DNA of 27,634 nucleotides from Candidatus Saccharimonadia bacterium (lineage in GTDB: Bacteria; Patescibacteriota; Saccharimonadia; Saccharimonadales; Saccharimonadaceae), in assembly GCA_023257755.1 (NCBI GenBank), contig JALRBM010000094.1, forward strand, positions 1 to 27,634, given 5' to 3'. The position numbers and the translations under genes are program-made. Below the pieces are notes generated by a model. The model was given only the letters and a program-made list of their open reading frames with translations, did no database searches and was not told where the DNA came from. This document shows, in pieces, positions 13,272-13,712 of this stretch (its first letter is position 1; every line of letters starts with the position of its first letter).

Positions 13272-13315
13272 TGAAAAATCGCACCTTTAGAGTGCGCGAA
13301 GAGATGAGGTAGCCC

Positions 13316-13648
13316 ATGCTTCCCATGCCCGTCACCGCCCTCCCGGGGAACGCTGAGGCCATGGCCGACTCGGTCAACCTGAGCGAACACCGGGGGCGGG
13401 TGGTCGAGATCGTGACCGCGTCCGGCTCCACCTACTGGGTGGTGCCGCTGGCCACCAGGACCACGTTCCGCCGCCGCGGTGTGACCTGCGTGCGCGGCCT
13501 GTCGATCACCACCAACAGCGAGACGGTCAACCGGTTCCCCACCGACCCCACCGCGCTGGAGGCCGTGAACACCGTCCGCACCGGGCAGCCCTGGCGCTTC
13601 GGCGACAAGGGCACCACCAGCAACGTGCGGTCGGTCCGGGTCCTCTAG
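13316..13648 (+). CDS. Hypothetical 110-aa protein with actinobacterial-type codon usage
   Basis: Hand count: 235 of 333 nt are G/C (~71%) and 106 of 110 sense codons end in G/C. SD GAGGT lies 5 nt before the ATG. The protein looks beta-rich (VVEIVTASGSTYWVV...TTSNVRSVRVL). No family recognised with confidence. Confidence 0.85.
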   Translation: MLPMPVTALPGNAEAMADSVNLSEHRGRVVEIVTASGSTYWVVPLATRTTFRRRGVTCVRGLSITTNSETVNRFPTDPTALEAVNTVRTGQPWRFGDKGTTSNVRSVRVL

Positions 13649-13657
13649 GGGACCTGT

Positions 13658-13695
13658 GGATCCGCCAAGCGACGCGTCTGTCGCTTGGCGGATCC
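13658..13695 (+). other. Perfect 16-bp GC-rich stem-loop with no U-tract
   Basis: GGATCCGCCAAGCGAC-gcgtct-GTCGCTTGGCGGATCC, 9 nt after the ORF stop codon. Confidence 0.85.
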
Positions 13696-13712
13696 CGCCC
13701 CCTCATCTCTTC

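What the first reader, a model, noticed from the sequence alone, without database searches (positions are those of the whole stretch)
13298..13712. 12-bp long-range inverted repeat that would sequester the ORF's ribosome-binding site
GAAGAGATGAGG (13298-13309) is exactly complementary to CCTCATCTCTTC (13701-13712), about 390 nt away. The 5' arm includes the GAGG of the SD, so the full-length RNA should be translationally muted, while a nascent or 3'-trimmed RNA would be translatable. Such 5'-3' fold-back inhibition is established for type I toxin mRNAs such as hok and aapA. Both arms lie outside the high-GC coding stretch. At DNA level they could instead be terminal inverted repeats of a small mobile cassette, but I see no target-site duplication or transposase.
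Basis: partly seen in the sequence, partly recalled or inferred. Interest (0 to 1): 0.72.

Follow-up and report, generated by a model that had tools for sequence, protein, structure and literature searches.

The report
End-pairing helix of a ribozyme-terminated mRNA
The 12-base inverted repeat is real: it is a conserved RNA helix joining the start of a small gene's message (including its ribosome-binding site) to its tail, right beside a self-cutting hammerhead ribozyme, a layout found across many Saccharimonadales genomes that gives a testable role for bacterial hammerheads.

Summary
The repeat is exact: 13298-13309 pairs with 13701-13712. By itself it is not significant in the window, with 3 such repeats against 1.6 expected. 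Its placement between leader and tail is unlikely by chance (5 of 20,000 shuffles), and comparison settles it.

It sits in a self-contained unit: promoter, 5' hairpin, 5' arm with the SD, a 110-aa ORF (GC3 0.96), a 16-bp hairpin, the 3' arm, then a type III hammerhead cutting after 13721. Relatives keep the pairing while the arm sequences change, with compensatory and + strand G.U changes. I found the same layout in about 18 of 26 hammerhead loci of the family and 18-21 of 35 independent loci of the order. The two other hammerheads of this genome have 15- and 19-bp helices.

The RNA helix is therefore well supported. SD masking is predicted here: 0% unpaired, and about 20 kcal/mol to open. But only about 45% of cassettes put the SD in the arm, so closing the ribozyme-cut mRNA is the general feature.

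It is not a type I toxin by the features I could test, and it is not a transposon end. I found no paper describing the layout. Earlier AI notes of this scan reported it in other genomes.

The parts
13243..13271 (+). Promoter TTGACT-17-TATATT with TG before the -10; predicted start near 13278
   Evidence: Consensus scan, 10 of 12 matches. Equivalent TATAAT-type boxes precede the 5' hairpin in related cassettes.
13280..13296 (+). 5' hairpin CGCAC-7 nt-GTGCG, 1 nt before the 5' arm
   Evidence: In MFE and centroid. G-C to A-U compensatory change in G004. A small hairpin directly before the 5' arm in most related cassettes.
13298..13309 (+). 5' arm of the long-range helix; contains the SD GAGG (13306-13309)
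13316..13648 (+). ORF of 110 aa, GC 0.71, GC3 0.96; orphan small all-beta protein
   Evidence: Confident AF2 model (pLDDT 88). About 30 cluster representatives in 1.8 billion proteins.
13658..13695 (+). Perfect 16-bp hairpin without a U tract, between the stop codon and the 3' arm
   Evidence: I2. Four compensatory pairs among three homologs. Equivalent GC-rich hairpins in related cassettes.
13701..13712 (+). 3' arm of the long-range helix, directly abutting hammerhead stem III
13713..13770 (+). Type III hammerhead ribozyme. Stem III 13713-13720 with 13763-13770. Cleavage after C13721. Stem I 13722-13727 with 13735-13740. Core CUGAUGA 13741-13747. Stem II 13748-13751 with 13756-13759. GAAA 13760-13763. 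The trmH stop codon (13765-13767, minus strand) lies inside stem III.
   Evidence: Rfam RF00008 at 22.8 bits, E = 0.025, below the gathering score. Covariation in 14 of 17 pairs over 27 loci, 90% paired against 24-46% in slid controls. The custom model scores this site at 76 bits.

Best explanation
The two arms are the strands of a long-range RNA helix that closes a self-contained, ribozyme-terminated mRNA.

Transcription starts near 13278 from the cassette's own promoter. A small 5' hairpin is followed at once by the 5' arm. About 400 nt later the 3' arm is made, followed directly by a type III hammerhead that cuts after C13721. The mature RNA therefore ends 9 nt beyond the helix, with a 2',3'-cyclic phosphate.

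The helix (-19 kcal/mol) ties the two ends into one junction with the 5' hairpin and the 16-bp 3' hairpin. In this locus the 5' arm contains the SD. The nascent RNA can therefore load ribosomes, while the finished, cut RNA is predicted to be closed to initiation.

The general role across cassettes is most likely end closure, meaning nuclease protection and definition of a discrete message. SD masking is a frequent addition and applies here.

Shown: the helix, its conservation and covariation, its position next to the ribozyme, and the ribozyme's covariation.

Inferred: cleavage in vivo, the transcription start, stabilisation, and translational masking.
For: - Exact repeat, present in MFE and centroid folds.
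- Close homologs keep all 12 pairs, with one A-U to G-C swap and two changes to G.U.
- Members of the same protein family with a hammerhead or U tract have different but complementary arms. Examples are AUCGAGAAGG/CCUUCUCGAU, AAGAGAGGAU/AUCCUCUCUU, UGAAAGAGAUAUC/GAUAUCUCUUUCA and UGAGAGAGGG/CCCUCUCUCA.
- In 26 hammerhead loci of the family, 18 cognate leader/tail pairs scored 10 or more, against 58 of 650 non-cognate pairs.
- In an independent set of 35 loci from the order, 18 met a combined score and position criterion, against 134 of 1190 non-cognate pairs (p = 1e-8).
- The 3' arm ends within a few nt of stem III, and the 5' arm follows a promoter and hairpin.
- The genome's two other hammerheads have 15-bp and 19-bp helices, the latter with 3 G.U pairs.
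- Family members with ordinary terminators lack the helix.
- SD accessibility falls from 0.23 to 0.00 once the 3' arm is present, and opening costs +19.8 kcal/mol.
- The hammerhead is supported by covariation.
Against: - There is no RNA evidence of any kind: the transcription start, the cleavage and the 3' end are all predicted.
- The hammerhead does not reach Rfam's gathering score.
- The SD lies inside the 5' arm in only about 18 of 40 cassettes, so translational masking cannot be the general purpose.
- A 12-bp helix over the SD would seem to defeat expression unless translation is co-transcriptional or something opens the helix.
- About a third of the hammerhead loci showed no clear helix with my ungapped search.
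- Non-cognate controls share arms between related loci, and the loci are not phylogenetically independent.
Confidence: 0.6

Rival explanations
1. The helix serves the ribozyme and not the message. It stacks coaxially on the short open stem III, or insulates the hammerhead from the GC-rich ORF, so that the hammerhead folds and cuts efficiently. The overlap with the SD is incidental.
For: - The 3' arm abuts stem III with 0 to 3 nt between them in most loci.
- Stem III is only 4-6 bp in many loci (outer pairs unpaired in 12-16 of 27).
- The helix co-occurs with the hammerhead and is missing in six terminator-type family members.
- Natural 3' arms disturb the local hammerhead fold slightly less than shuffled arms do (0.64 against 0.60, p = 0.01).
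Against: - A local hairpin next to stem III would do the same job more cheaply, yet the partner is nearly always the 5' leader several hundred nt away.
- Two family members keep a leader-tail helix (10 and 11 bp) followed by a U tract, with no hammerhead (L008 and L051).
- In local folding, a free 3' arm does not block the hammerhead.
Confidence: 0.2
2. A hok/aapA-type fold-back. The full-length RNA is a stable, silent store. Slow 3' trimming removes the 3' arm and stops at the 16-bp hairpin, which frees the SD and switches on a harmful protein.
For: - The SD is buried in the mature RNA only.
- A strong hairpin without a U tract sits just upstream of the 3' arm, where a trimming exonuclease would stop.
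- All ten helix-bearing members of this protein family place the SD in the 5' arm.
- The hok and aapA1 mechanisms are cited from my own knowledge of the literature, not from a paper read here.
Against: - The product is 110 aa, soluble and all-beta, with maximum hydropathy 1.13 and no transmembrane helix.
- There is no Pfam, PADLOC or PHROG hit.
- No conserved antisense promoter or antitoxin RNA was seen.
- Many cassettes with the same frame do not mask the SD and carry diverse cargo up to 408 aa.
- The locus is syntenic across genera, as a housekeeping-type accessory gene would be.
Confidence: 0.1
3. The helix, stacked with the neighbouring hairpins, is an RNase III processing stalk like those flanking rRNAs. 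It trims both ends of the message.
For: 5'-3' flanking helices as RNase III sites are established for rRNA precursors (own knowledge). The helices are 10-19 bp.
Against: - The ribozyme already makes the 3' end.
- 10-12 bp is at or below the usual RNase III substrate length.
- I did not check whether RNase III is present.
- Nothing specific supports this reading.
Confidence: 0.04
4. DNA-level terminal inverted repeats of a small mobile cassette, or a chance repeat.
For: - The cassette is present or absent at the same dnaE/CHAP-trmH junction among relatives.
- The cargo GC is foreign-looking.
- Window-wide, 12-mer inverted repeats are not rare.
Against: - The arms are internal to the inserted segment. 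The promoter and 5' hairpin lie outside the 5' arm, and the whole ribozyme lies outside the 3' arm.
- There is no target-site duplication and no transposase.
- The arm sequence occurs only at this locus in the genome.
- Arms differ between loci yet stay complementary, and they use G.U pairs valid on one strand only.
- Cognate pairing far exceeds non-cognate pairing.
Confidence: 0.03

Closest known systems
Type III hammerhead ribozymes flanking single genes or short gene blocks in bacterial and prophage DNA (Perreault et al. 2011, PMC3088659; Rfam RF00008)
   Same: Same catalytic core and three-stem layout. Placed at gene boundaries. Proposed to cut transcripts into gene-length mRNAs. Function still unproven.
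   Different: - Each unit here has its own promoter and a single ribozyme at its 3' end.
- A leader-to-tail helix abuts stem III.
- The host is Saccharimonadales (CPR).
- The sequence is below the Rfam gathering score.
- The paper passages returned by my term search describe no 5'-3' pairing.
Fold-back inhibition in type I toxin mRNAs (hok tac/fbi; Helicobacter aapA1), from my own knowledge
   Same: The 5' end pairs with the 3' end of the full-length mRNA. The SD is occluded in the finished RNA but free in the nascent RNA. A stable hairpin lies just inside the 3' pairing element.
   Different: - The 3' end is set by a ribozyme, not by a terminator.
- The product is not a small hydrophobic peptide.
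- No antisense RNA was found, and there is no sequence homology.
- In many sister cassettes the helix does not touch the SD.
Ribozyme-insulated synthetic expression cassettes (for example RiboJ-type insulators), from my own knowledge
   Same: A self-cleaving ribozyme plus an adjacent helix makes the transcript end independent of genomic context. The unit works as a plug-in with its own promoter.
   Different: Synthetic insulators sit at the 5' end and use a local hairpin. Here the ribozyme is at the 3' end and the helix spans the whole message.
5'-3' processing stalks of rRNA precursors
   Same: Sequences flanking the functional RNA pair over a long distance and bring both ends together.
   Different: Those stalks are longer, are cut by RNase III and are then removed. 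Here the cut is made by a ribozyme next to the helix, and the helix is predicted to stay in the mature RNA.

Membership tests
Type III hammerhead ribozyme | Conserved core CUGANGA ... GAAA, with the A15.1-U16.1 pair and a cleavage-site base other than G | tested here: met
   CUGAUGA 13741-13747, GAAA 13760-13763, U13720-A13763, C13721. The U-A pair is invariant in 27 of 27 loci.
Type III hammerhead ribozyme | Three helices around the core, stems I and II closed by loops and stem III open, supported by covariation | tested here: met
   14 of 17 pairs have compensatory changes. 90% of cells are paired, against 24-46% when partners are slid. 0 of 500 shuffles reach the observed score.
Type III hammerhead ribozyme | Score at or above Rfam's gathering threshold for RF00008 | tested here: not met
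   22.8 bits against 48.5, E = 0.025, local match without stem III. This is a curation threshold, not a biological feature.
Type III hammerhead ribozyme | Self-cleavage | not testable with these tools
   Needs in vitro transcription. No RNA run was listed.
Type I toxin-antitoxin mRNA with fold-back inhibition (hok/Sok, aapA/IsoA) | Small (under about 60 aa) hydrophobic, membrane-active toxin | tested here: not met
   110 aa, all-beta model with pLDDT 88, maximum 19-aa hydropathy 1.13.
Type I toxin-antitoxin mRNA with fold-back inhibition (hok/Sok, aapA/IsoA) | Long-range 5'-3' pairing that occludes the SD in the full-length RNA | tested here: met
   Predicted only: present in MFE and centroid; SD 0% unpaired; +19.8 kcal/mol to open. 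Covariation in homologs.
Type I toxin-antitoxin mRNA with fold-back inhibition (hok/Sok, aapA/IsoA) | Cis-encoded antisense RNA antitoxin | tested here: inconclusive
   No promoter-like site on the minus strand inside the cassette. There is one weak site inside trmH, and trmH read-through would be antisense. No RNA data.
Type I toxin-antitoxin mRNA with fold-back inhibition (hok/Sok, aapA/IsoA) | Activation by 3' trimming | not testable with these tools
   Needs mapping of RNA 3' ends.
Inverted-repeat-bounded mobile element (MITE or IS-like) | Repeats at the termini of the inserted DNA, flanked by a target-site duplication | tested here: not met
   Empty sites in G001, G002, G013 and G017 show the insert runs from the dnaE/CHAP stop to the trmH stop. 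The arms lie 58 and 55 nt inside it. No duplication.
Inverted-repeat-bounded mobile element (MITE or IS-like) | Several copies with the same terminal repeats, or a transposase | tested here: not met
   The cassette DNA and the arm sequence occur once in the 772-kb assembly. The cargo has no Pfam domain.
Intrinsic terminator | GC-rich hairpin followed directly by a U tract | tested here: not met
   No such site on the + strand in 13000-14000. The 16-bp hairpin is followed by CGCC and the 3' arm.

The most novel reading that the evidence does not exclude
The closed, ribozyme-trimmed RNA is a transfer form, not an ordinary message. It would be an end-protected mRNA with masked SD whose codons (GC3 0.96 in a genome with GC3 about 0.56-0.60) suit a high-GC host. 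The epibiont would pass it to its host cell, where it would be opened and translated. Nothing here tests this. It is only not excluded, and it would explain the otherwise odd combination of host-type promoter, foreign-type codons, masked SD and nuclease-proof ends.
Probability: 0.03. Interest if true: 0.95.

Novelty: new variant of a known kind. Interest (0 to 1): 0.68.

Why it matters
What bacterial hammerhead ribozymes are for has stayed open since they were found in bacterial genomes; the 2011 survey I read calls their functions unclear (PMC3088659).

Here a hammerhead is tied to a specific, repeated RNA design. It has its own promoter, a leader that pairs with the tail, and a cut placed exactly at the end of that helix. 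In my searches the hammerhead itself occurs in 57 of 151 sampled genomes of the order, and most loci I examined have the full design.

That turns the question into simple experiments: cleavage, end mapping, half-life, and translation with disrupting and compensatory arm mutations.

It also gives a candidate natural case of a ribozyme-defined mRNA 3' end combined with SD masking. And it marks a class of GC-rich, fast-evolving orphan genes in Saccharibacteria that share one expression frame.

Tried and rejected
- Rfam at gathering thresholds on the window and three loci gave nothing.
- No RNA holder was listed for the window stretch in either search, so no reads were laid.
- The ORF has no Pfam, PADLOC or PHROG family. 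Nine to ten cargo proteins of other cassettes likewise have none.
- Fold search of the confident AF2 model found no PDB match at E of 0.001 or better. There were only weak Sm-like rows with TM about 0.2-0.3, and uncharacterised AFDB clusters. I make no functional claim from these.
- No relative of the ORF turned up in phage records or viral contigs.
The narrow alignment gave two Saccharimonadales MAGs.
- RtcB was not found in this 89%-complete genome, and there is no upstream ribozyme to give a 5'-OH. I therefore dropped circularisation.
- I tested ribozyme gating by the arms, meaning a free 3' arm blocking the hammerhead. In this window CUCAUC in the 3' arm can pair with GAUGAG of the core, but this is not conserved (L006 breaks it). 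Over 61 loci, natural arms disturb the local hammerhead fold no more than shuffled arms.
- A pair of one-mismatch copies of the arm on contig C10 lies inside a histidine kinase gene and is chance.
- The window-wide count of 12-mer inverted repeats is not above chance.
- Literature searches for hammerhead with Saccharibacteria, candidate phyla radiation or Patescibacteria found nothing relevant.

Full report
**Observation**

The two 12-mers are exactly as described. GAAGAGATGAGG lies at 13298-13309 and CCTCATCTCTTC at 13701-13712, perfectly complementary and 391 nt apart. The 5' arm ends 6 nt before the ATG at 13316 and contains GAGG.

Taken alone the repeat is weak evidence. The window holds 3 perfect 12-mer inverted repeats with 50-1000 nt spacing, where dinucleotide shuffles give 1.6. 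Placement matters more. A complement of 12 or more between the 41-nt leader and the 73-nt tail arose in only 5 of 20,000 shuffles. The helix is also part of both the MFE and the centroid structure of the predicted mature RNA (-225.4 kcal/mol, z = -5.9).

**Anatomy**

The repeat lies in a compact unit wedged between two convergent genes: dnaE (9493-13239, +) and a SpoU/TrmH methyltransferase (13765-14328, -). In order, the unit contains:
- a promoter, TTGACT-17-TATATT with an upstream TG (13243-13271);
- a 5-bp hairpin (13280-13296);
- the 5' arm;
- a 110-aa ORF of 71% GC and GC3 0.96, in a genome whose neighbouring genes have GC3 0.56-0.60;
- a perfect 16-bp hairpin without a U tract (13658-13695);
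- the 3' arm;
- with no spacer, a type III hammerhead (13713-13770).

Rfam gives the hammerhead only 22.8 bits. However, the core is complete. On an alignment of 27 related loci, 14 of 17 pairs show compensatory changes. 90% of cells are paired, against 24-46% in slid controls. Cleavage is predicted after C13721, so the mature RNA would end 9 nt after the 3' arm.

**Comparative evidence for the helix**

1. The three closest cassettes are the window, a Logan contig at 79% protein identity, and G004 at 62%. They keep every pair of the helix, with one A-U to G-C swap and two changes to G.U. The 5' hairpin and the 16-bp hairpin also covary.

2. More distant members of the same protein family have different arms that still pair. 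Several sit at the same dnaE/CHAP-trmH-pilB junction. Their arms include:
   - ATCGAGAAGG/CCTTCTCGAT
   - AAGAGAGGAT/ATCCTCTCTT
   - GAGAGGAAGTGT/GCACTTCCTTTC
   - TGAAAGAGATATC/GATATCTCTTTCA
   - GTGAGAGG/CCTCTCGC
   - two with a single bulged U

3. A strict hammerhead pattern found 26 loci in 25 of 401 genomes of the family, with none for the reversed control. In 18 of the 26, the tail just upstream of stem III has a helix scoring 10 or more to a site several hundred nt upstream, against 58 of 650 non-cognate pairs. The 5' partner follows a TATAAT box and a small hairpin.

4. A covariance model built from these loci hit 57 of 151 genomes sampled across the order. In this independent set of 35 loci, 18 met a joint score and position criterion, against 134 of 1190 non-cognate pairs (p = 1e-8).

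5. The model also found two more hammerheads in this same genome. Both have the layout. One has a perfect 15-bp helix and the other a 19-bp helix with three G.U pairs. They enclose ORFs of 310 and 408 aa at 63-70% GC.

G.U pairs are valid only on the + strand RNA. The arms differ between loci but match within a locus. That is what an RNA helix predicts and what a protein-recognised DNA repeat does not.

**What the helix goes with**

Six members of the protein family that end in an ordinary hairpin-plus-U terminator show no leader-tail helix. Two members without a hammerhead keep a 10-bp and an 11-bp helix, each followed directly by a U tract (L008 and L051). The constant feature is therefore a 3' end formed just after the 3' arm, usually by the ribozyme.

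The 5' arm includes the SD in all ten helix-bearing members of this protein family. Across all cassettes examined it does so in only about 18 of 40. A large subgroup has the arm TGACAAG[CT]AGA, with the SD 8-12 nt further on. SD masking is therefore real for this locus but is not the common denominator.

**Not a mobile-element end**

Relatives with empty sites (G001, G002, G013, G017) show dnaE or the CHAP gene running straight into the end of trmH. The inserted segment therefore spans promoter to ribozyme, and the arms lie well inside it. There is no target duplication, no transposase and no second copy in the genome.

**Mechanism**

Shown in silico:
- the arms form a -19.2 kcal/mol duplex;
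- the SD is about 23% unpaired in RNAs ending at 13648 or 13696, and 0% unpaired once the 3' arm is present;
- forcing the 5' arm open costs +19.8 kcal/mol.

Inferred: ribosomes can load while the RNA is being made. Once the tail is transcribed and the ribozyme cuts, the ends zip together. The result is a compact RNA with a 5' hairpin, a closing helix, a strong 3' hairpin and a short tail ending in a cyclic phosphate. Each of these features is expected to hinder exonucleases (established knowledge of bacterial mRNA decay, not tested here).

Whether the closed form is simply long-lived, silent, or later reopened cannot be decided without RNA data.

I tested one alternative, that a free 3' arm blocks the ribozyme so that cutting reports on the state of the leader. 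Over 61 loci, natural arms disturb the local hammerhead fold no more than shuffled arms. Circularisation is unlikely, because there is no upstream ribozyme to give a 5'-OH and RtcB was not found (the genome is 89% complete).

**Comparison with known systems**

The ribozyme is a member of the type III hammerheads by core and covariation, though it falls below Rfam's threshold. Membership fails on the toxin criterion, because the product is a 110-aa soluble beta protein. Membership is untested for the antisense RNA.

Perreault et al. 2011 (PMC3088659) describe bacterial hammerheads flanking genes in prophages and leave their function open. The passages returned by my term search of that paper mention no leader-tail pairing. 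Full-text searches for hammerhead together with Saccharibacteria, CPR or Patescibacteria returned nothing relevant.

Earlier AI notes of this scan report the same cassette frame in at least 22 other genomes. I re-derived it here independently and used those notes only for one hypothesis, which I then tested.

**Verdict**

The RNA-helix reading is strongly supported. SD masking is plausible for this locus. The type I toxin framing and the transposon alternative are not supported.

The finding is best filed as a new variant built from known parts, a hammerhead plus a 5'-3' fold-back. It is of real interest because it makes the function of bacterial hammerheads testable.

Noticed in passing
G000 contig C52:6176-6237 (-) = L096; contig C25:2975-3036 (-) = L097: Two further hammerheads in the same genome. 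Each ends a promoter-led unit with a 15-bp or 19-bp leader-tail helix and a GC-rich ORF (310 aa at 68% GC; 408 aa at 63% GC) in flanks of about 40-50% GC.
   Followed up: partly
window 13316-13648 and cassettes L021-L097: The ORF has GC3 0.96, against 0.56 for dnaE and 0.60 for pilB. In 17 of 17 order-level cassettes the cargo is more GC-rich than its 5' flank (0.54 against 0.42). Family members at the same syntenic site have ORF GC from 0.47 to 0.71 and, where computed, GC3 from 0.71 to 0.96. I have no explanation: foreign origin, selection on RNA structure, or something else.
   Followed up: partly
window 13316-13645 versus L006:3001-3330: Between two homologs, 23 codons differ in amino acid but only 9 differ synonymously. 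The protein evolves fast while silent sites are unusually constrained.
   Followed up: no
window 13763-13770: The stop codon of the convergent trmH gene (13765-13767, minus strand) lies inside the 3' strand of hammerhead stem III, so the ribozyme overlaps a core gene's end.
   Followed up: no
window 13280-13296, minus strand: The reverse complement of the 5' hairpin followed by ATTTTTCAAA scores as a terminator-like site for the minus strand. trmH read-through could then give a roughly 490-nt RNA antisense to the whole cassette. The U tract is not conserved in L006 or G004.
   Followed up: partly
window 13702-13707 and 13743-13748: CUCAUC in the 3' arm is complementary to GAUGAG of the hammerhead core, and the 5' arm repeats GAUGAG. 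G004 changes both in step (CGUC and GACG), but L006 breaks the match. Local folding gives no sign of gating.
   Followed up: yes
L072, L073, L074, L075, L080, L084, L087, L088, L096: A subgroup of cassettes shares a near-identical 5' arm, TGACAAG[CT]AGA. Several of them, together with L035, also share a leader element (TTTTGTTGAG ... CCAAAG), with the SD AAGGTGAG downstream of the arm. The conserved sequence hints at a further, sequence-specific function.
   Followed up: no
L076, L083, L084 (hammerhead at 1501): Three hammerheads have a 13-15 bp helix abutting stem III whose partner lies only 75-144 nt upstream. This is a local hairpin, not a gene-spanning helix; these may be decayed or non-coding units.
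   Followed up: no
L098-L102 (G001, G002, G003, G013, G017): The dnaE/CHAP-trmH junction is empty in four relatives, two of them in the same genus, and holds a different minus-strand gene in G003. The cassette is present at this same junction in other, unassigned contigs (L063, L064) and in genus g21 next to CHAP (L008). This is a presence/absence polymorphism at one site.
   Followed up: partly
P0004, P0007, P0013, P0024: Giant proteins (1049-3294 aa) match residues roughly 8-46 of the small-protein profile in 9-20 repeated stretches. This may be a shared beta-strand repeat or low-complexity similarity.
   Followed up: no
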